Below, piece by piece: positions 3,117-42,295 of a DNA stretch of 43,264 nt. Both the position numbers and the translations under genes were made by a program. Source of the stretch: Escherichia phage Minorna; the sequence record NC_048172.1; one strand, given 5' to 3'. Numbering within the stretch: position 1 is the stretch's first letter; every line of letters starts with the position of its first letter. The notes beneath the pieces were generated by a model. The model was not told the origin of the DNA and searched no databases. It saw nothing but the letters and a program-made list of their open reading frames with translations.

Positions 3117-3494
3117 TTATGCTGCAGCAGCGTTAGTCGCTGCTACGAAGGCCGACTGTAGGGCCTTGAATGAGTTGTCGAAGTCCGTACCAGAACCCTC
3201 ACCTAGCGGCATACCTGTACCGGTGAGCGCTACGTAGCCGGTCTTGCTAAGCTGGAACAGCATGGAGAACAGTCGCGCCTGCAGGGTGCCATCATCCTTA
3301 AAGGATTCCCCGACAGCTGTAGCCGAGTAGCCTTGGGACTCCATGTAGGCAAAGAACGTGTTGAATTTATCCAGCGCACCCGTACCCACAAAGCCGACAT
3401 TGTAGTCAGGGGCCACCTCTTTCTCAAGGTTCTGGCTCTTGCCTACAATGGCGTACTGTACATCCGCAGATTTAGCCGCGATGATTGATGCCAT
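3117..3494 (-). CDS. hypothetical protein (125 aa)
   Basis: ORF immediately downstream of the large terminase gene; start overlaps the terminase stop; no recognisable motif. Confidence 0.5.
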   Translation of the reverse strand: MASIIAAKSADVQYAIVGKSQNLEKEVAPDYNVGFVGTGALDKFNTFFAYMESQGYSATAVGESFKDDGTLQARLFSMLFQLSKTGYVALTGTGMPLGEGSGTDFDNSFKALQSAFVAATNAAAA

Positions 3495-33513: not shown

Positions 33514-34794
33514 TCACCTGTTAATCTGCCCTTCGTTAAAGCGGCACCTACCTGGGTCGAATGCCACCTCGAATTGCAGGAGCGATTCTTTACCAGATAG
33601 TGCCATCTTATTCTTCGGCGTACTGATACCACGAATGTTTTGCATATGCGGCTGCTCATTCCTGTCCAAGCACCCCATCATAATCGCCAAATCCAAAGCA
33701 CCTTGTACACCAATCTTACTCTGTTTCATTGCCGTGAGCGGAGGGAACAGTAGGTTGTAACCTTCGAGTGAAAGCTGCATAGTACCGATAACGGCACAGT
33801 CATTCTCACACCCCAAGATACGCAGCTCCTGCCACTTCGCTTCTAGATTCTGGTGCTCACTCTCCATAGTACCACCACGGATGTTCGCCACCATATCAAT
33901 GATGATTACCGCTGGGCGCATCTCCTCCATGAGCGTAGAGATTTGAGCCATCGTAAGGGAGTGCGCTGCCTTGATACGGATGCGGTCTGCCCTACCTACT
34001 TTCTCCAGATAGGCTGGCACAAACTCTTGCTTACTGTGCCTGTCCTTAATCTCAGCCAGAGTCCAATGCAGCGCCGCTTGGTATACCCTCGGCACAGTAC
34101 GCGTCGCCGGGCCTTCATTAACCAGCCATAGAATCGGACGATCCCCGTACACTTCCGGTTGCTGCTGCATCTGCTTAGCGAAGTCCACAGCAATAGCAGC
34201 GAGTAGGCTAGTTTTACCAGAATCAACAGGGGCAGCCACAGCAATACAATCACCACCACGAAGCCCACGGATGCTATTAGAGAGTTGCTCAAACACACCC
34301 AGCTTAAGACCGCCACTTTCATCAGTCGCGGCAAGTATCTCATCAACACTTCCGCTCTCCCATTCCAGTAGCGAATCATGAACAGCAGCACCATCACCGT
34401 ACTTGCGCTGGAGGTGCTTCATCTCCAGCAGGTAATCAACTTCCTCCCCGTCTTGGTAGCGCTGCGTGAGCGCTGCGACCTCTCCACTGTACGCCAGCTC
34501 GTTCAGGGTCTGGACAATCCCCACCACAGAATCCTGCGGCACGGCTTGTACTCCCCGCATAAGCTCGTCCATGATTACCCTCTCTTCCCGGGATAAGTGT
34601 CCGGCCCGGAGATTGAGCATGCTCTGCATTGCATCCCACTGCACCTCCTGGTGCTCTGGGTACGTGTTCCAGTACAGCCCTACCCAGTCAAGTAGGTTCG
34701 AGGTATCAGGGGCGAGCATGCTCTTGGGTATCTGCTCTCGCAGTCGGTTCCAGACCTTCTGCGTGCACATTGCCTTGACTACTATTAGGTCCAA
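33514..34794 (-). CDS. replicative DNA helicase (DnaB-like)
   Basis: 426 aa with Walker A-like AAPVDSGKTSLLAAIAV and DnaB-like C-terminal architecture; adjacent to the primase region. Confidence 0.8.
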   Translation of the reverse strand: MDLIVVKAMCTQKVWNRLREQIPKSMLAPDTSNLLDWVGLYWNTYPEHQEVQWDAMQSMLNLRAGHLSREERVIMDELMRGVQAVPQDSVVGIVQTLNELAYSGEVAALTQRYQDGEEVDYLLEMKHLQRKYGDGAAVHDSLLEWESGSVDEILAATDESGGLKLGVFEQLSNSIRGLRGGDCIAVAAPVDSGKTSLLAAIAVDFAKQMQQQPEVYGDRPILWLVNEGPATRTVPRVYQAALHWTLAEIKDRHSKQEFVPAYLEKVGRADRIRIKAAHSLTMAQISTLMEEMRPAVIIIDMVANIRGGTMESEHQNLEAKWQELRILGCENDCAVIGTMQLSLEGYNLLFPPLTAMKQSKIGVQGALDLAIMMGCLDRNEQPHMQNIRGISTPKNKMALSGKESLLQFEVAFDPGRCRFNEGQINR

Positions 34795-35019: not shown

Positions 35020-35225
35020 TAAACCTCCACTTTGTAGATGGCACTCTTTCTAGCATGCGCTCGACACAGGCTCTCTGCCTCATGAAGGTTGGGGTACGTG
35101 TTAATACCTACCCCACGCCCGGATCTGCACAGTTGCCACCAGCGCACCGGAAACCACCAGAACTTAACCTGCGCCTCAAATCCTGCGTAGTTGTCCTGCA
35201 CTACTCTGTACTTATTCTTAAACAT
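35019..35225 (-). CDS. hypothetical protein (68 aa)
   Basis: Small basic ORF coupled to neighbours. Confidence 0.4.
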   Translation of the reverse strand: MFKNKYRVVQDNYAGFEAQVKFWWFPVRWWQLCRSGRGVGINTYPNLHEAESLCRAHARKSAIYKVEV

Positions 35226-36006
35226 TCAAAGCCTCTAGTATCTCTTTGATTTCTGCGTCCTTCGGGTCCGCAGCGAAGTAGTGTTCTCGGCATTGCATGA
35301 ACGGGCGCAGCGCTTTGCGTGCCGCTGCTACCCCAGCATGCCCTGCCAGGTCATTGTCCAGCATTAGAATCACTTCCGGGCGATTCTGAATCAGCCAGGC
35401 CCTTAGCTGCGTGGGCAAGCGTGTACCCAGCATAGCTATAGCCTGCACGTTCAACGCACTGTAGCTCGTAACTGCGTGCTGTATCTTCCGGGCTGAGAGT
35501 AAGTCCTCGGTGAGCACGACCTTTAGAGGTGCGGCCGCAGCTACAGCCGGTGCTACGGCAGGTGCCGCGACAGCGAAAGCTATTGGCTGGCCGTACATTA
35601 CCCACTTCGGTTGCTGCCGGGCATGAACAGCACGGCCCAGTACAGCACCCCCGACACAGAATAGTATCCGCTGTTTCTCGTTGCTCCACTCTGCATCCTC
35701 CACCATTTCAGGCATGATTCCTTTTGAAGCAAGGAATCCGTAAATAAAACTCTGCGTTTCCGCAGGCGCTTGGCTAATGCAAATTGCATCTGCAGGTGCA
35801 GAGGGCTGCACCCTCGGCTCTTCCTGTAACTGTATGCGCTGGTACTGCTTGCGCTCCTTGCCTACCTGTTTGCAGCGGTGGCAATAGTATTCCCAGGCAT
35901 CCGGGTTATTGTAGAGCACCCCGGCGGCGTCCCTGCCGCAGCACCGAAAGCGTGCCCTCTGCCCCACGGCCAGGCGCTTGCACGCTCTAAGCCAGGGTTG
36001 GTCCAT
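35218..36006 (-). CDS. DNA primase (zinc-binding N-terminus plus TOPRIM domain)
   Basis: 262 aa; N-terminal Cys pairs (RCCGRD..CHRCKQ) and TOPRIM-like acidic motifs (VVLTEDLLSARK..ILMLDNDLAGHAG). Confidence 0.75.
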   Translation of the reverse strand: MDQPWLRACKRLAVGQRARFRCCGRDAAGVLYNNPDAWEYYCHRCKQVGKERKQYQRIQLQEEPRVQPSAPADAICISQAPAETQSFIYGFLASKGIMPEMVEDAEWSNEKQRILFCVGGAVLGRAVHARQQPKWVMYGQPIAFAVAAPAVAPAVAAAAPLKVVLTEDLLSARKIQHAVTSYSALNVQAIAMLGTRLPTQLRAWLIQNRPEVILMLDNDLAGHAGVAAARKALRPFMQCREHYFAADPKDAEIKEILEALNV

Positions 36007-36212
36007 TACTTTAATCTCATAGTTGTGGCATATGCGAAGTTAGGTTGCCGGAGAATCATGGGCTCACTCAACAGCACCGGGGCCCCGTCGTGTAGGTAAA
36101 ATATATCCCCGCTAGGAGATTTTATGGCCCAGTAACTTGTTGTGCCCCAGGTAAATGGGACAGCCGTCCTGATAGTGTTGGGTACGGTGTTGTAATTTAT
36201 AGTACTAGACAT
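36006..36212 (-). CDS. hypothetical protein (68 aa)
   Basis: Small ORF in the coupled array. Confidence 0.4.
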   Translation of the reverse strand: MSSTINYNTVPNTIRTAVPFTWGTTSYWAIKSPSGDIFYLHDGAPVLLSEPMILRQPNFAYATTMRLK

Positions 36213-36678
36213 GTGCTTTCCCCTTGCGTTTGATATCCATAGCCATGCGACGAAGGTCGTGTGCTAATTGCAGGGCTGCGTCGGGACTCATATTAATACC
36301 GATCTCCCGCTCCGCCCGGGTGCTGTTCTTTCTAGGAACTACTCCGATGTAGAGTAGGTTCTCATCAGTCCAACTGCATCTTTCTAGGACTAGCCGCTGA
36401 TCGTTGCCGTGGTCGCGCTTGGAGTTCATGTAAGCCACACTAGCTGGAACCGGTGGCAGCTCGTCGTCAGGCTCTTGGTACAGTTTGAAGTTAGGTGCAT
36501 ACCACGGGCAACAGTCATAGTCGATAGTAAAGTTATCCAACTGCAGCCAGTGGCCGCTTGAGGTCATAGCTGTAACTGTGTAGTAATCAAAATCCCCTTG
36601 GTGCTTCTTAAACGGCGAGCGGTCGTCGGGTGATTTGCGTACTACTTTATCACCAATTTTAAACTTAGACATAATCAA
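36205..36678 (-). CDS. hypothetical protein (157 aa)
   Basis: ATGA-type overlap with the upstream peptidase-like gene; no recognisable motif. Confidence 0.5.
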   Translation of the reverse strand: MIMSKFKIGDKVVRKSPDDRSPFKKHQGDFDYYTVTAMTSSGHWLQLDNFTIDYDCCPWYAPNFKLYQEPDDELPPVPASVAYMNSKRDHGNDQRLVLERCSWTDENLLYIGVVPRKNSTRAEREIGINMSPDAALQLAHDLRRMAMDIKRKGKAHV

Positions 36679-37709
36679 CCCTCCACAATATTATCGTATC
36701 CACCCCAGTCCTCTACAACTCGGGTGCCTAGTTCAATCAGTTCTTCTTTGAAGCCATAATCAGAATACACCATGATGTATTCCGCCGCCCTTGCTGGGTT
36801 ATCTAGCACCCAGCTAATCAGTTGCTGCTTAGAAAGTTGTGACACCTCCTTAAACGCTGCTAGTAAATGCGGATCTTCCGCAGGGGGAACATCCAGGGGC
36901 ATCGTTAGGGGATGCGTATAGGCAGATAACCACGTATCCGGTTCCACTACTTTAGGATCACGCTCAATCGGCAGGTGCTTGAATGTACCTGGACTGAGTA
37001 CGTGCTCCAGTACGCTGCCAAGAATGCTAAGGTCCAGCACCTCATCCGGAGTATGCTCGTGCATGTACCCTACACCTACGTTAGTGCATTCCGGGATAAT
37101 CTGCATGAACTCAGCGGAGTCCGTGTATACCCCTTTCTGTAAGTGCGCATCCGTTCGTCCTAATCGGGCCGCCAGCTCCTTTGCAAACGTATCAGAACAG
37201 CAACGTTGGTATCGTTGATGCGTAATGATCCCATCCCCACGGCGGTCAAAGCTAATCATTGCCTTGACCCCAGTCCAGAAGCCAGTATCATCTTTTGCGG
37301 ATGCACTGCTACCCTCACAGCCTACTTCTTCATCCACGAAGAAGCAGTAGCGTCCATGTACTCCCTGCCTAATCATCTCCAGCATCAAGTAGATACCAGC
37401 ACCACAGTCTGCACCTAGACAGTCCGCCACCTGTGGATTCCGCAGGAACATTACACCCTTGTTAGTGATTGCAATGTCTGGCGCAGCGCTACCAGGCCGG
37501 GCCACTGTATCCAGATGTGAAGTAAACGCTACATCACTCTGTTCAGAGCCGCCAATAAGCACAAAGTAGTTACCATGAGCGTCTCTTACATAGTGCTCTG
37601 CACCAGCAAGAGCGCTACTAAGTAGCGGCTCAAACCATTTGGTACTACCCCAGCTAGGTCGGTGCGTTGTTAGTATCTTTGTTAGTAGTTTAAGGTCAAC
37701 ACCATACAT
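36675..37709 (-). CDS. putative zinc metallopeptidase-like protein (M20/M28/M42 aminopeptidase-like fold)
   Basis: 344 aa with metal-ligand-like motifs in the order expected for co-catalytic aminopeptidases: TSHLDTV (HxD), GADCGAG, FFVDEEVGCEGS (EE pair), GYMHEHTPDE (distal His/Glu). By-eye motif match only. Confidence 0.5.
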   Translation of the reverse strand: MYGVDLKLLTKILTTHRPSWGSTKWFEPLLSSALAGAEHYVRDAHGNYFVLIGGSEQSDVAFTSHLDTVARPGSAAPDIAITNKGVMFLRNPQVADCLGADCGAGIYLMLEMIRQGVHGRYCFFVDEEVGCEGSSASAKDDTGFWTGVKAMISFDRRGDGIITHQRYQRCCSDTFAKELAARLGRTDAHLQKGVYTDSAEFMQIIPECTNVGVGYMHEHTPDEVLDLSILGSVLEHVLSPGTFKHLPIERDPKVVEPDTWLSAYTHPLTMPLDVPPAEDPHLLAAFKEVSQLSKQQLISWVLDNPARAAEYIMVYSDYGFKEELIELGTRVVEDWGGYDNIVEG

Positions 37710-39409
37710 TAAGCTGCCTCCTGTTCTGCTTTAGCTTCTTTGTCTTCTTCGGCTTCTTCATTACCGAGGTAGGGCTCATCCAATACGGACGCAGCATACT
37801 CCGTGAGAATCATACCGTGCACGGGGTGCTCTTCGGCATGCACACTCAGAACATTGTACCCTTGTACGCACACCATTGGCTCTTCATCATGCACTGTACC
37901 CTCTACAGCACAATGTTCTACGTCCCGGTCAAGTACCCAAGAGTCGTGGTAGTCAGACCATGAGCAATCCCATGATGGGTACACTACGCTGCGGCCCACT
38001 ACCTGTACGTAAGTATCACCGATGCAGTGCGGGCATACATAACCACCGTCACAAGCTACGTACATGTCATCCTCGTCGAAGCGTCCCCCGCACTCTACAC
38101 AAGCGCTGCGACCATCATCAATCCAAATGTACCCATCAGCGTCCTGCGCTTCGTAGTCGTAACAGTCGCAGATACAGAATGCATCCCCGCCCAATTCATC
38201 CACCCCGTCTTGGTTCCCATCCAAGTACGGCATAAGCACGGCACCGTCATGCTCTGGGTGCGGGATACGCGCCAGCGTTGCACCATCTAAGCAGTCTGTA
38301 TCTAGCTCATACCCATTAGCACGTAGAATGGCGTCCGCAGCATCCCCGTATGCACGGACGTATTCATTGGTTTCGATGTTAACGATAGCGCGGGCGTGCA
38401 CTTTAAAATCATCGCCAAAAAGTTCACCAGTATACTGGATGAACAAGCGCAGCCCATTATCCGGCAAGCCGTGACTAGTCGTGGCATATACACGCACCGG
38501 GCTAGCCTCGAAGTCGTATCCGGTCATGCAGCTACGAGGACCATTCTCGTATGCGTAGTACCACTCCCGTTCGGTCTTACAAAGATATGTAGTAGGCTCC
38601 ACGTTCATAGCTTTGAGGTCTTCAATACATTCCCGGAAGTCTACACCGCCTCCGTAATAATTAGCGAGCAACTTGCCTGCCCGCATCTCTACACAGCGAT
38701 ACTCAGTAACAGCGGCGTAGTCTTTGTGTAATCGCGGCTGCCCCAGCATTACTACAGGCTCACCGTTGCGGAAGCCAAAACCTAGAGGGATTGCAAATCT
38801 AGACACTACAAATCCGTGCAACTGCATAAGCAAGGTTGCTGCCCAAGAGTCCCCATCATACACACTGTACCCACGAAGGTATTTGGCCCGGAGGGAGTGA
38901 GTAGGTGCTAGCATAATCTCTTCGAACAACTCTATAGCCTGTTTGTGCACCTTGTATCCGGTAAAGTATTGGACCGCTTCTACTACACGCTCTGTAACTA
39001 CATCAGGGCCATCATAGAAGGTTCTGCTAGATAAACCGAATGCTTGGTCGCAGGTACCTGCACAGTCAAAGAGCTTATACAGGAGAGTGTCACTAATATC
39101 AACCGTGCCCAGCGGCCCAACATACCCACCCAAATCCTCTCCTGCAGCTGTAAAGTTGCCGAGTGCTACAATATACCCCGGCAGCACCCTTGAAAACATA
39201 TAAAAGCCATTCAAAAGCGCACGGGTTTTGTTACTTTGCACGCGCGCACGGCCTTGAGTTGATAGGCAGGGAAGTTGGCACCAGTAATCCCCGGAAGAGT
39301 ACATACTATCCTTCAGTGGGAGAGCATTGGCCCCTTCTGGAAATTTGATGGTCCAACTCTCATAGGCAGGTACTTTTACGTCTACGGTTACTTTGTTAGT
39401 CTCTTGCAT
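37709..39409 (-). CDS. large early hypothetical protein, acidic with Cys-rich C-terminal region (566 aa)
   Basis: Largest early ORF; start set to ATG 39409 (GGAGA about 8 nt upstream) because the track ORF to 39703 overlaps the upstream gene by about 250 nt; C-terminal region has CxC and CxxC clusters (CICDC..CVECGG..CPHC) in a strongly acidic context; Glu/Ala-rich tail. Confidence 0.55.
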   Translation of the reverse strand: MQETNKVTVDVKVPAYESWTIKFPEGANALPLKDSMYSSGDYWCQLPCLSTQGRARVQSNKTRALLNGFYMFSRVLPGYIVALGNFTAAGEDLGGYVGPLGTVDISDTLLYKLFDCAGTCDQAFGLSSRTFYDGPDVVTERVVEAVQYFTGYKVHKQAIELFEEIMLAPTHSLRAKYLRGYSVYDGDSWAATLLMQLHGFVVSRFAIPLGFGFRNGEPVVMLGQPRLHKDYAAVTEYRCVEMRAGKLLANYYGGGVDFRECIEDLKAMNVEPTTYLCKTEREWYYAYENGPRSCMTGYDFEASPVRVYATTSHGLPDNGLRLFIQYTGELFGDDFKVHARAIVNIETNEYVRAYGDAADAILRANGYELDTDCLDGATLARIPHPEHDGAVLMPYLDGNQDGVDELGGDAFCICDCYDYEAQDADGYIWIDDGRSACVECGGRFDEDDMYVACDGGYVCPHCIGDTYVQVVGRSVVYPSWDCSWSDYHDSWVLDRDVEHCAVEGTVHDEEPMVCVQGYNVLSVHAEEHPVHGMILTEYAASVLDEPYLGNEEAEEDKEAKAEQEAA

Positions 39410-39455
39410 TTTCTTTGTCTCCGGTGTTAATAGTATCTCATCATGTATTAAAAGT

Positions 39456-39800
39456 TCAGCGCGCATACCACGCAGAGAGCTGTCGCTGCTTATAGTATGA
39501 GCGCACAGCCGCCCTAAATCTTGTATACGCTCCACGATACCCATACCGTAGCAGTGCTGCGACCACATCGAACGCAATGTGCTCTTGCAATCTGCGCGCG
39601 GCAGACTCTGTATACTCTCGATAGGTTGTGAGAACAGTGCCAGTACCCTCTTTTCTAACGCGGAGTAATCGACGCTCAACTGGTACGATTTGCTTGAGTT
39701 CATTAGGAACCTCTTTGAATGTTTCCCAAGTGCAGCCGCACTTGCCTTGTGTTTCCAGCAAGCGCCAACACAGTAGCGCTGTTTCGTCTACTGTGAGCAT
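39456..39800 (-). CDS. hypothetical early protein (114 aa)
   Basis: Arg-rich small ORF in the early array. Confidence 0.5.
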   Translation of the reverse strand: MLTVDETALLCWRLLETQGKCGCTWETFKEVPNELKQIVPVERRLLRVRKEGTGTVLTTYREYTESAARRLQEHIAFDVVAALLRYGYRGAYTRFRAAVRSYYKQRQLSAWYAR

Positions 39801-40855: not shown

Positions 40856-41431
40856 TCATGCCGCTACCTTCAAAGTTGCATCCAGCACAGCGCGTACATC
40901 CACGCCCTGACTGATAAGCATAGATACCAAATCAGAGTCGCTCACCCCAGTTTCTTTAGCCTTCTTGATAGCGTTTTTAACGCGCCCCAGAGCTTGCAGA
41001 CGCACTGCATCGGCATCAAGGGCATCATTCTTCACCTGCTCTGCTTCGGCGTTGTACAGGGCCATACAAGCGCTATAGAAGCTGGCCACAATCACTTCAC
41101 GGCCTTGCTTGTCAGCTTGTTTATAGTCCAAACGCATAGTGTCCAGTTCAATGCCCAGCTTTTCAGCCGACGCATAGCACTTTTTAGCGTGGAATTCGTA
41201 CTTGCCCGATTCCTTGTTGAACTTGATAGGCAGCAGTGTACGCAGCACCATATCGAAATCGGCGGCATCACTGCGCTGCATATCCGTCGCCCAAGAAACG
41301 TTGCTACTAATCAGGCCGTGGAACAGAGCGCTGATAGTAATATTGCGTTTTGCTTCCACTACATCGCCCAGCGCCTTGCGAATGCTGCCAGCAGCGGTTA
41401 ATTTGAATACTCTACCAGTTGAATGAGTCAT
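40856..41431 (-). CDS. hypothetical early protein (191 aa)
   Basis: Second gene of the early region; GAGGT 5 nt upstream of the ATG; no recognisable motif. Confidence 0.55.
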   Translation of the reverse strand: MTHSTGRVFKLTAAGSIRKALGDVVEAKRNITISALFHGLISSNVSWATDMQRSDAADFDMVLRTLLPIKFNKESGKYEFHAKKCYASAEKLGIELDTMRLDYKQADKQGREVIVASFYSACMALYNAEAEQVKNDALDADAVRLQALGRVKNAIKKAKETGVSDSDLVSMLISQGVDVRAVLDATLKVAA

Positions 41432-42266: not shown

Positions 42267-42295
42267 AATCTAGCCTATGTTCTTCGCGGTGTCAA
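42267..42295 (-). promoter_or_regulatory. candidate sigma70-type early promoter (TTGACA-N17-TAGATT on the minus strand)
   Basis: Plus-strand tgtcaa at 42290-42295 and aatcta at 42267-42272; correctly oriented and spaced for minus-strand transcription toward the early genes. By-eye hexamer match only. Confidence 0.25.

What the first reader, a model, noticed from the sequence alone, without database searches (positions are those of the whole stretch)
36675..39409. Early-region pair: metallopeptidase-like protein and a large acidic Cys-rich protein
The two largest early ORFs are adjacent and translationally coupled. The 344-aa protein carries motifs in the order expected for co-catalytic zinc aminopeptidases (HxD, xDxxG, EE, distal His/Glu). 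The 566-aa protein is strongly acidic with CxC/CxxC clusters and has no obvious enzymatic signature. Early genes of T7-like phages are where host-takeover and anti-defence functions reside (established for T7 gp0.3 Ocr and gp0.7), so a peptidase-like enzyme paired with a large acidic protein is a candidate host-takeover or anti-defence module of unknown mechanism. This is the most plausible place in the window for an undescribed system.
Basis: partly seen in the sequence, partly recalled or inferred. Interest (0 to 1): 0.6.

Follow-up and report, generated by a model that had tools for sequence, protein, structure and literature searches.

The report
Conserved phage peptidase and partner pair
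Two overlapping genes in this Klebsiella/E. coli-type phage, a zinc exopeptidase and a large acidic protein of an unstudied family, stay side by side in very different phages, so they almost certainly work together, but what they do is unknown.

Summary
The window is the whole genome of Escherichia phage Minorna, a Drulisvirus. A 344-aa clan-MH zinc peptidase (36675-37709, minus strand) overlaps by one base (TAATG) the stop of a 566-aa acidic protein with 20 Cys (37709-39409).

Across 12 divergent lineages, 22 of 22 testable loci have the peptidase gene directly downstream. Two very distant phages carry the pair in reverse order. Half of the family ends in Ala-Ala, against 0.6% expected. That resembles an ssrA degron or a docking tail.

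Both genes are core genes next to the primase, which argues against an accessory anti-defence role. The pair is a real, old two-gene module of unknown mechanism. The peptidase annotation is not new; the linkage, the motifs and the Ala-Ala tail appear undescribed.

The parts
37709..39409 (-). Large acidic partner protein, 566 aa (stop codon 37709-37711). GenBank's 664-aa form starting at 39703 is probably over-extended.
   Evidence: ORF list; codon-phase test and invariant M99; PHROG 6980 function unknown; 1,094 family clusters; AlphaFold pLDDT 90.5
37850..38692 (-). Conserved family core, residues about 240-520. Motifs: G245-K, Y287, S293-C294-M295, Y308, R340, Y354, P394-Y395-x-D397, G426.
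   Evidence: Profile matches of distant members cover positions about 240-520; conserved columns in 147 sequences; motifs retained in Cellulophaga phage gp037
38525..38533 (-). Ser293-Cys294-Met295 motif. Cys294 is invariant; it is a candidate nucleophile or ligand residue.
   Evidence: C294 invariant and S293/M295 at least 90% conserved in 147 sequences; 'SCMRY' in the most distant homologues
38024..38101 (-). Zinc ribbon: C437-x2-C440 ... C459-x2-C462.
   Evidence: Four Cys at least 90% conserved; beta-hairpins in the model; weak RBR/LIM zinc-finger matches. Absent from the most distant homologues.
37712..37789 (-). Low-confidence acidic C-terminal tail (residues 541-566) ending in Ala-Ala (codons at 37712-37717).
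   Evidence: pLDDT 55-59 for the last 20 residues; 68 of 137 family representatives and 117 of 120 close homologues end in -AA
37707..37722 (-). Coupling junction: AGGAGG (37717-37722) and the TAATG stop/start overlap (37707-37711).
   Evidence: Sequence; overlapping or near-abutting junctions in relatives
36675..37709 (-). Clan-MH (M28/M20-like) co-catalytic zinc exopeptidase or amidohydrolase, 344 aa. Catalytic domain about residues 40-245 plus a lineage-specific C-terminal helical extension.
   Evidence: Pfam M28 above cut-off; PHROG 4191; PepT-like structures at E 1e-14, with no lid domain; invariant H65 D67 D101 E127 E128 D155 H219
39456..39800 (-). Upstream 114-aa basic protein (PHROG 6167, function unknown). 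It accompanies the pair in enterobacterial and Vibrio relatives, and its frame is the selected one in the overlap.
36205..36672 (-). Downstream 155-aa protein (PHROG 4317, function unknown), starting 2 nt after the peptidase stop. Conserved after the pair only in the closer relatives.
42267..42295 (-). Best sigma-70-like promoter match upstream of the early block (TTGACA-17-TAGATT). Consensus match only.
   Evidence: No convincing promoter or terminator lies between it and the pair, but the total number of hits does not exceed the shuffled controls.

Best explanation
The two genes form an old, dedicated two-protein module of tailed phages, and it is a core function rather than an accessory one.

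Shown:
- The downstream protein is a minimal clan-MH zinc exopeptidase or amidohydrolase. It has an M28-type single catalytic domain and PepT-like sequence, with every metal ligand and the catalytic Glu intact.
- The upstream protein belongs to a very large, unannotated phage family. Its core carries invariant Ser-Cys-Met, Arg, Tyr and Pro-Tyr-x-Asp residues. In most lineages it also has a zinc ribbon and a flexible acidic tail that usually ends in Ala-Ala.
- The two genes stay adjacent, and are usually translationally coupled, across phages that share almost nothing else.

Inferred:
- They are made in fixed proportion early in infection, from the early operon just before the replication genes, and act as a complex or in consecutive steps on one cytoplasmic substrate.
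- The partner supplies substrate recognition or chemistry in its conserved Cys/Arg/Tyr/Asp pocket. A weakly GNAT-like alpha/beta domain hints at acyl or aminoacyl handling.
- The peptidase hydrolyses a terminal peptide or N-acyl-amino-acid bond of that substrate.
- The acidic Ala-Ala tail either docks in the exopeptidase site or sets the partner's lifetime through ClpXP.

The identity of the substrate is unknown.
For: Peptidase identity and intact active site.

Partner family:
- Size and conserved core.
- Confident model (pLDDT 90.5, pTM 0.79).
- A secondary-structure order like the GNAT core runs through residues about 207-290. G245 sits at the start of a helix and Y287-x2-G-P follows, but the mapping is my inference.

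Linkage:
- The peptidase is directly downstream on the same strand in 22 of 22 loci that have enough sequence, from 12 lineages. Partner identity goes down to about 25%.
- Junctions mostly overlap by 1-4 nt.
- The pair occurs in reversed order in Cellulophaga phage phi40:1 and in a 99-kb contig, with the motifs intact.
- Record counts for the two genes match in cultured Klebsiella (232/232), Vibrio (42/42), Escherichia (8/8) and Shigella (4/4) phages.

Core-gene status: PMC4411677, PMC6115819.

Position next to primase and helicase.

Ala-Ala terminus: 68 of 137 representatives against 0.6% expected. It persists where the two genes do not overlap.
Against: - No physical interaction was tested; both structure-prediction jobs went to the partner alone.
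- No fusion of the two domains was found among 396 retrieved homologues.
- The peptidase also occurs without a detectable partner within about 5 kb (L003; Thermus phage P74-26), so it can work alone.
- The invariant Cys could be structural.
- Some paired lineages lack the Ala-Ala end (VP93, Peggy, C171).
- In Minorna the antepenultimate residue is Glu, and polar residues at that position are unfavourable for ClpX recognition (PMC10862746).
- No experimental data exist for either protein in any phage in the literature searched.
Confidence: 0.4

Rival explanations
1. ClpXP-directed device. The partner's exposed acidic tail ending in Ala-Ala is an ssrA-like degron. Either the protein is deliberately short-lived (timing control), or it acts as a hard-to-unfold decoy that occupies ClpXP. 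The exopeptidase edits such C-terminal tails, on its partner or on ssrA-tagged host proteins.
For: - 50% of family representatives end in -AA against 0.6% expected. 39 of those 68 have L, I, V or A at the antepenultimate position.
- The tail is flexible and variable in length.
- Terminal Ala-Ala is the critical ClpX determinant (PMC10862746).
- An exopeptidase is a plausible tail editor.
Against: - Drulisvirus tails are ...EQEAA, and polar residues upstream of Ala-Ala disfavour recognition. Ala-Ala alone is not sufficient.
- Several paired lineages lack -AA.
- It does not explain the deeply conserved Cys/Arg/Tyr/Asp core.
- The closest solved relatives of the peptidase (PepT-like) act on N-termini of tripeptides, not on protein C-termini (direction of action is from general knowledge).
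Confidence: 0.2
2. One reading: a host-takeover or anti-defence module in which the large acidic protein acts as a nucleic-acid mimic or inhibitor (as Ocr does) and the peptidase inactivates a host factor.
For: - Strong acidity: pI 4.47, net charge -49, with residues 401-566 especially acidic.
- Early-operon position downstream of a sigma-70-like promoter.
Against: - Core-gene distribution across genera and host phyla, rather than patchy accessory distribution.
- No PADLOC, Pfam or structural match to known mimics or anti-defence proteins.
- Clan-MH enzymes are exopeptidases or deacylases, not endoproteases that would cut a folded host protein (general knowledge of the clan).
- Invariant polar motifs suggest a pocket rather than a charge-mimic surface.
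- Rac is a small protein encoded downstream of the phage RNA polymerase gene, a different locus.
Confidence: 0.15
3. Metabolic supply. The peptidase simply degrades host oligopeptides, or deacylates amino-acid derivatives, to feed phage synthesis. The partner is an unrelated neighbour kept nearby by synteny.
For: PepT-like tripeptidase similarity; the peptidase occurs alone in some phages.
Against: - Adjacency survives in 12 lineages with otherwise unrelated neighbourhoods, and even after the gene order is inverted.
- Translational coupling.
- Hosts already encode such peptidases (general knowledge).
Confidence: 0.1
4. Nucleotide or DNA modification pathway. The partner transfers an amino-acid or acyl group to a base or nucleotide, and the clan-MH enzyme trims it.
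For: - Position next to replication genes.
- In one distant locus the pair lies near Nmad5 and a deoxynucleotide monophosphate kinase.
- In another it lies near CoaE and NUDIX genes.
Against: - No known modification genes (hydroxymethylase, kinase, transferase families) occur in the early and replication regions examined here or in the Drulisvirus loci.
- No homology to known base-modifying enzymes.
- The supporting contexts are single instances.
Confidence: 0.05

Closest known systems
MEROPS clan MH co-catalytic zinc peptidases: M28 aminopeptidases and PepT-like M20B tripeptidases (PDB 3gb0, 3rza)
   Same: Same ligand set and order (His, Asp, Glu-Glu, Asp, His), all invariant. Pfam M28 match above cut-off. 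Profile E about 1e-14 to PepT-like structures over both halves of the catalytic domain.
   Different: No M20 lid or dimerisation domain: the two aligned halves are contiguous here but about 140 residues apart in 3gb0. It has a phage-specific C-terminal helical extension, additional family-specific invariant residues (N47, R156, Q165, T196-D197, E207-x-T-N) and an obligate-looking partner gene. Substrate is unknown.
GNAT (Gcn5-related) acyltransferases, including the GNAT-like Fem-type peptidyltransferases
   Different: No sequence-profile match to any acetyltransferase family. No Foldseek PDB hit. The canonical Q/R-x-x-G-x-G/A motif is not clearly present. The invariant residues lie mostly outside the putative GNAT part.
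LysW/LysK amino-group carrier system (recalled from general knowledge, not tested)
   Same: A zinc-ribbon protein with an acidic C-terminal tail works with an M20-family hydrolase that releases a product from that tail. This is a working analogy for 'acidic tail plus clan-MH enzyme'.
   Different: LysW is about 54 aa and ends in Glu. No ATP-grasp ligase accompanies this pair, no homology was detected, and the partner here is 566 aa with its own conserved pocket.
ssrA degradation tag (C-terminal ...LAA) recognised by ClpXP
   Same: Free C-terminal Ala-Ala after a flexible segment, with a hydrophobic antepenultimate residue in many lineages (PMC10862746).
   Different: It is genetically encoded, not added by tmRNA. 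Drulisvirus tails are ...EAA with acidic upstream residues, which are unfavourable, and it is not universal in the family.
Rac (LUZ19 gp28), the GNAT of phiKMV-like phages that triggers cleavage of the host RNA polymerase alpha subunit
   Same: A phage of the same broad group uses a GNAT-type protein together with a proteolytic event to take over the host (PMC7552054).
   Different: Rac is encoded after the phage RNA polymerase gene, has clear GNAT sequence motifs and needs no phage peptidase. The sequence relationship to the partner here was not tested.

Membership tests
Clan MH zinc peptidases (M28/M20/M42) | Significant profile match to a family model | tested here: met
   Pfam PF04389 at 24.9 bits against a 21.3-bit cut-off; family profile against PepT-like PDB chains, E 1.6e-14 and 3e-14
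Clan MH zinc peptidases (M28/M20/M42) | Five metal ligands (H, D, E, D/E, H) plus the catalytic Glu, in canonical order and conserved | tested here: met
   H65, D67, D101, E127, E128, D155 and H219 invariant in 40 sequences down to 33% identity
M20 subfamily specifically | Inserted lid or dimerisation domain between the two halves of the catalytic domain | tested here: not met
   Query segments 38-136 and 165-228 align to 3gb0 residues 55-160 and 303-366, so the roughly 140-residue insert is absent. The TIGR01883 PepT-like match is far below its cut-off.
Clan MH zinc peptidases (M28/M20/M42) | Hydrolytic activity on peptide or N-acyl-amino-acid substrates | not testable with these tools
   Needs enzyme assays
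GNAT acyltransferases (for the large protein) | Sequence-profile match to an acetyltransferase family | tested here: not met
   No Pfam or NCBIfam hit for the protein or for 65 family members
GNAT acyltransferases (for the large protein) | GNAT fold | tested here: inconclusive
GNAT acyltransferases (for the large protein) | CoA pyrophosphate-binding motif Q/R-x-x-G-x-G/A after strand 4 | tested here: inconclusive
   R243-A-G245-K at a strand-to-helix junction, with G245 at least 90% conserved. The second Gly/Ala is missing and the register is inferred only from secondary structure.
Zinc-ribbon domains | Two CxxC knuckles on beta-hairpins, conserved | tested here: met
   C437, C440, C459 and C462 at least 90% conserved in 147 sequences; hairpins in the model; weak RBR/LIM matches. 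Metal binding itself was not tested.
DNA-mimic anti-restriction proteins (Ocr/ArdA type) | Homology or fold similarity to known mimics | tested here: not met
   No sequence or structure match. Acidity alone is met.
Known defence or anti-defence protein families | Match to PADLOC models; patchy accessory distribution | tested here: not met
   No PADLOC hits; core-gene distribution
ssrA-like ClpXP degron | Free C-terminal Ala-Ala | tested here: met
   Minorna ends ...EQEAA; 68 of 137 family representatives end in -AA
ssrA-like ClpXP degron | Favourable (hydrophobic, non-acidic) residues upstream of Ala-Ala | tested here: not met
   Minorna and 114 of 120 close relatives have Glu at the antepenultimate position in an acidic tail. 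Other lineages do have LAA, IAA or VAA. Requirements taken from PMC10862746.
ssrA-like ClpXP degron | ClpXP-dependent degradation | not testable with these tools
   Needs stability assays in clpX or clpP mutants
Rac (LUZ19 gp28) | Sequence homology and position downstream of the phage RNA polymerase gene | not tested
   The position differs: this pair is upstream of the primase.

The most novel reading that the evidence does not exclude
The pair is a previously unrecognised phage enzyme system. The large protein would be a new kind of Cys-dependent acyl- or aminoacyl-transferase-like enzyme that carries its own flexible acidic Ala-Ala tail. The tethered clan-MH exopeptidase would process that tail, or a tag built on it or on host proteins. 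This would be a tail- or tag-editing reaction, comparable in logic to carrier-protein (LysW/LysK) or ubiquitin-like C-terminal processing. Many unrelated tailed phages would use it at the start of replication.
Probability: 0.15. Interest if true: 0.85.

Novelty: new variant of a known kind. Interest (0 to 1): 0.55.

Why it matters
Drulisvirus phages are among those most often isolated for therapy against Klebsiella. These two genes are core genes of the genus, yet one is only labelled 'peptidase' and the other 'hypothetical'.

The partner family has more than a thousand 50%-identity clusters. It has no Pfam, NCBIfam or functional PHROG annotation and no solved relative. Showing that it is locked to a zinc exopeptidase across distant phages, some infecting a different bacterial phylum, turns two anonymous genes into one testable module. 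It comes with clear mutational targets: C294, R340, Y395/D397, the Ala-Ala tail, and H65/E127 of the peptidase.

If the Ala-Ala tail engages ClpXP or the peptidase, that would be a new way for phages to control or exploit proteolysis. The work also corrects a recurrent start-codon error, 664 versus 566 aa, that has spread through GenBank and PHROG.

Tried and rejected
**Searches that gave nothing**
- Pfam, NCBIfam and PADLOC scans of the large protein and of 65 family members gave nothing usable. PHROGs returned only families of unknown function.
- Sequence and profile searches of PDB chains with the large protein found only generic zinc-finger similarity.
- Foldseek against the PDB found no hit at E below 1e-3.
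- BFVD returned only uncharacterised phage proteins. Marginal hits to 'amidoligase', 'PcfJ-like', 'LIM' and 'N-acetyltransferase' were too weak to use.

- The first AlphaFold run, with 12 close sequences, failed (pLDDT 48). A 147-sequence alignment fixed that.
- AFDB50 was not available.
- The third homologue search, with the profile, returned only close Drulisvirus proteins.

**Ideas tested and dropped**
- I looked for fusion proteins as evidence of interaction and found none in 396 sequences.
- I considered that the Ala-Ala end is a by-product of the downstream Shine-Dalgarno sequence or start overlap. I rejected this because LAA and IAA ends persist with 12-18 nt intergenic gaps and without GAGG.
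- I rejected the 664-aa start.
- I considered homology to Rac. The locus and protein size differ, and the sequence comparison was not possible.

**Literature**
- Searches found no functional study of either protein.


Full report
**Identity of the window**

The 664-aa ORF product is identical to CPT_Minorna_049 of Escherichia phage Minorna, on a 43,264-bp contig, so the window is that whole genome. Megablast places it in Drulisvirus (KP34-like; Autographiviridae, Slopekvirinae). The nearest relatives are Klebsiella phage KPV811 and several Escherichia and Shigella phages at 88-92% identity over this region. All genes examined are on the minus strand. Downstream of the pair come a 155-aa protein, the DNA primase (35218-36006) and a DnaB-like helicase (33514-34770). 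The best sigma-70-like promoter match lies upstream at 42267-42295. The pair therefore closes the early block and abuts the replication genes.

**Checking the observation**

Both ORFs exist as described.

The peptidase:
- It scores above the Pfam gathering threshold for Peptidase_M28, with weaker M20 and M42 matches.
- It matches PHROG 4191 'peptidase' end to end.
- As a family profile it hits PepT-like M20 structures at E about 1e-14.
- In an alignment of 40 homologues down to 33% identity, H65, D67, D101, E127, E128, D155 and H219 are invariant.
- The alignment to 3gb0 shows that the M20 lid domain is missing, so the protein is a bare M28-style catalytic domain plus a lineage-specific C-terminal extension.

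The start of the large gene needed a test, because GenBank records annotate 664, 586 or about 566 aa.
- The first 98 residues of the long form are poorly conserved, while M99 is invariant.
- In the 245-nt overlap with the upstream 114-aa ORF, variability across nine genomes is 0.125/0.106/0.243 by codon position in the 114-aa frame. The most variable position is the second position of the long frame.
- GGAG lies 9 nt upstream of ATG 39409.

The 566-aa protein has pI 4.47, net charge -49 and 20 Cys. Its stop overlaps the peptidase start (TAATG), with AGGAGG 7 nt upstream of the ATG. The CICDC cluster is not conserved; the CxxC-x18-CxxC pair is.

**What the large protein is**

No Pfam, NCBIfam or PADLOC model matches it or 65 of its relatives. 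PHROGs 6980 and 13313 are 'unknown function'.

An exhaustive profile search of 1.84 billion cluster representatives found 1,094 proteins at E up to 1e-3 and 231 at E up to 1e-10. The shared part is residues about 240-520; the N-terminal 200 or so residues are lineage-specific. In 147 sequences, C294 and D397 are invariant. G245, Y287, S293, M295, Y308, R340, Y354, L362, G366, P394, Y395, G426 and the four ribbon cysteines are at least 90% conserved.

With this alignment AlphaFold gave pLDDT 90.5 and pTM 0.79, against 48 with a shallow alignment.
- Foldseek found nothing in the PDB at E below 1e-3.
- BFVD returned only uncharacterised proteins of phages infecting Klebsiella, Shigella, Vibrio, Pectobacterium, Pseudomonas and Caulobacter, and of uncultured marine phages.

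The deep conservation of polar residues suggests a catalytic or ligand pocket. The zinc ribbon is missing in the most distant members and so is accessory.

**Linkage of the two genes**

I collected loci around divergent partner homologues:
- Eight Drulisvirus genomes.
- Cultured phages of other genera: Vibrio phage VP93, Pectobacterium phage Gaspode, Pseudomonas phage C171 and Cronobacter phage Peggy.
- Metagenomic contigs whose partner protein is only about 25-45% identical.

Profile searches of six-frame ORFs gave these results:
- All 22 loci with sequence downstream of the partner gene have the peptidase as the next gene on the same strand.
- The 23rd locus ends 129 nt after the partner's stop.
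- The loci fall into 12 lineages, and some are clearly not Autographiviridae.

Junctions are mostly 1-4-nt overlaps (TAATG, ATGA, TGATG); a few have 12-25-nt gaps.

In cultured phages the record counts for the two proteins match: Klebsiella 232/232, Vibrio 42/42, Escherichia 8/8, Shigella 4/4.

The peptidase family is wider, reaching Bacillus, Thermus and Cellulophaga phages among others. With filters off, two of the apparently solo loci do carry a distant partner homologue next to the peptidase, in reverse order:
- Cellulophaga phage phi40:1 gp037, E 1.6e-8.
- A 319-aa protein on a 99-kb contig, E 3e-5.

Both keep the motifs G[KR]xL, SCMRY, GRAL[VL]W, RIY and YPY[LM]DTF. No partner was found near the peptidase in L003 or in Thermus phage P74-26. 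No fused protein was found.

In the closer relatives the 114-aa gene upstream and the 155-aa gene downstream accompany the pair.

**An unexpected feature: the C-terminus**

- Of 137 family representatives of at least 300 aa, 68 end in Ala-Ala and 86 end in Ala. Expectation from composition is 0.6%.
- Of 120 close homologues, 117 end in -AA, and 114 of those end in -EAA.
- The antepenultimate residue is L, I, V or A in 39 of the 68, and E or D in 20.
- The preceding segment varies in length (median 70 residues after the core), is acidic (median net charge -4 over the last 20 residues) and has low confidence in the model.
- The pattern holds where the genes do not overlap (LAA with an 18-nt gap; IAA with a 12-nt gap), so it is not a by-product of the ribosome-binding site.
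- A terminal Ala-Ala is the critical, though not sufficient, determinant of ssrA-like ClpXP degrons. Acidic or polar upstream residues weaken it (PMC10862746).
- Some paired lineages lack it (VP93, Peggy, C171).

**Interpretation**

Firmly shown: an intact clan-MH exopeptidase-type enzyme, a large uncharacterised partner family with a conserved pocket-like motif set, and a very old and strict genetic linkage.

My best reading is that the two act together, as a complex or in consecutive steps, on one cytoplasmic substrate early in infection. The partner would provide recognition or chemistry, and the peptidase would hydrolyse a terminal amide. The Ala-Ala tail would serve as a docking or lifetime element.

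The anti-defence idea is weakened by core-gene status in KP34-like and PhiM1-like phages (PMC4411677; PMC6115819) and by conservation across host phyla. [quoted passage not shown]

No study of either protein's function turned up in the literature searches.

**Novelty and score**

The peptidase annotation is already in GenBank and in genus descriptions. The following appear undescribed in what I could search: the partner family's extent, its motifs, its confident but unmatched structure, the strict pairing including the reversed order, the Ala-Ala terminus, and the corrected start.

I rate the module a new variant of a known kind: a clan-MH peptidase with a dedicated unknown partner. I give about 0.15 probability that it is a categorically new tail- or tag-editing system. 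Interest is 0.55. It is a well-supported, widespread, testable unknown in medically relevant phages, but its mechanism is not established.

Noticed in passing
window 39410-39703 (minus strand); also L014, L020, L007: The 664-aa annotation of the large gene (GenBank Minorna, KPV811, SFN6B; PHROG 6980 profile) includes a 98-residue N-terminal extension. It overlaps the 114-aa ORF and shows no coding-type conservation. The reading frame nevertheless stays open in most relatives.
   Followed up: yes
window 40856-41431 (minus strand): Another early protein (191 aa, PHROG 5277, function unknown) also ends in ...KVAA, an ssrA-like C-terminus. Whether its family shares the trait was not checked.
   Followed up: partly
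window 3117-3494 (minus strand): A 125-aa ORF near the lysis/late end of the genome ends in ...TNAAAA.
   Followed up: no
whole window: The genome announcement (PMC6554615) calls Minorna a 'myophage' and its relatives 'T1-like'. The sequence, however, is a Drulisvirus (Autographiviridae, podovirus type) by nucleotide identity, and the announcement itself lists an RNA polymerase gene. The published morphology or classification looks inconsistent with the genome.
   Followed up: partly
L019 4496-5508 (Pseudomonas phage YMC11/06/C171_PPU_BP): The peptidase homologue is split into two overlapping ORFs, each annotated 'peptidase'. This is either a frameshift in the sequence or a pseudogene. This phage's partner protein also lacks the Ala-Ala end.
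   Followed up: partly
L005 3077-8981 (99-kb metagenomic contig): The reversed-order pair is flanked by a NUDIX hydrolase and a dephospho-CoA kinase (CoaE) gene. This is a possible hint of CoA or nucleotide chemistry, but it is a single instance.
   Followed up: no
L007 5305-5766; L014 8353-8814; L010 6067 onward: HNH homing endonuclease genes are inserted at varying places between the pair and the primase and helicase genes in some relatives but not in Minorna, so this stretch is an insertion hot spot.
   Followed up: no
Others have VITAH or IIRDS at the same place.
   Followed up: yes
window 36675-36960 (peptidase residues about 250-344): The C-terminal extension of the peptidase ends with a conserved ...E-D-W-G-G... 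motif in Drulisvirus-like phages. A related extension is also present in a solo peptidase (L003). Function unknown.
   Followed up: partly
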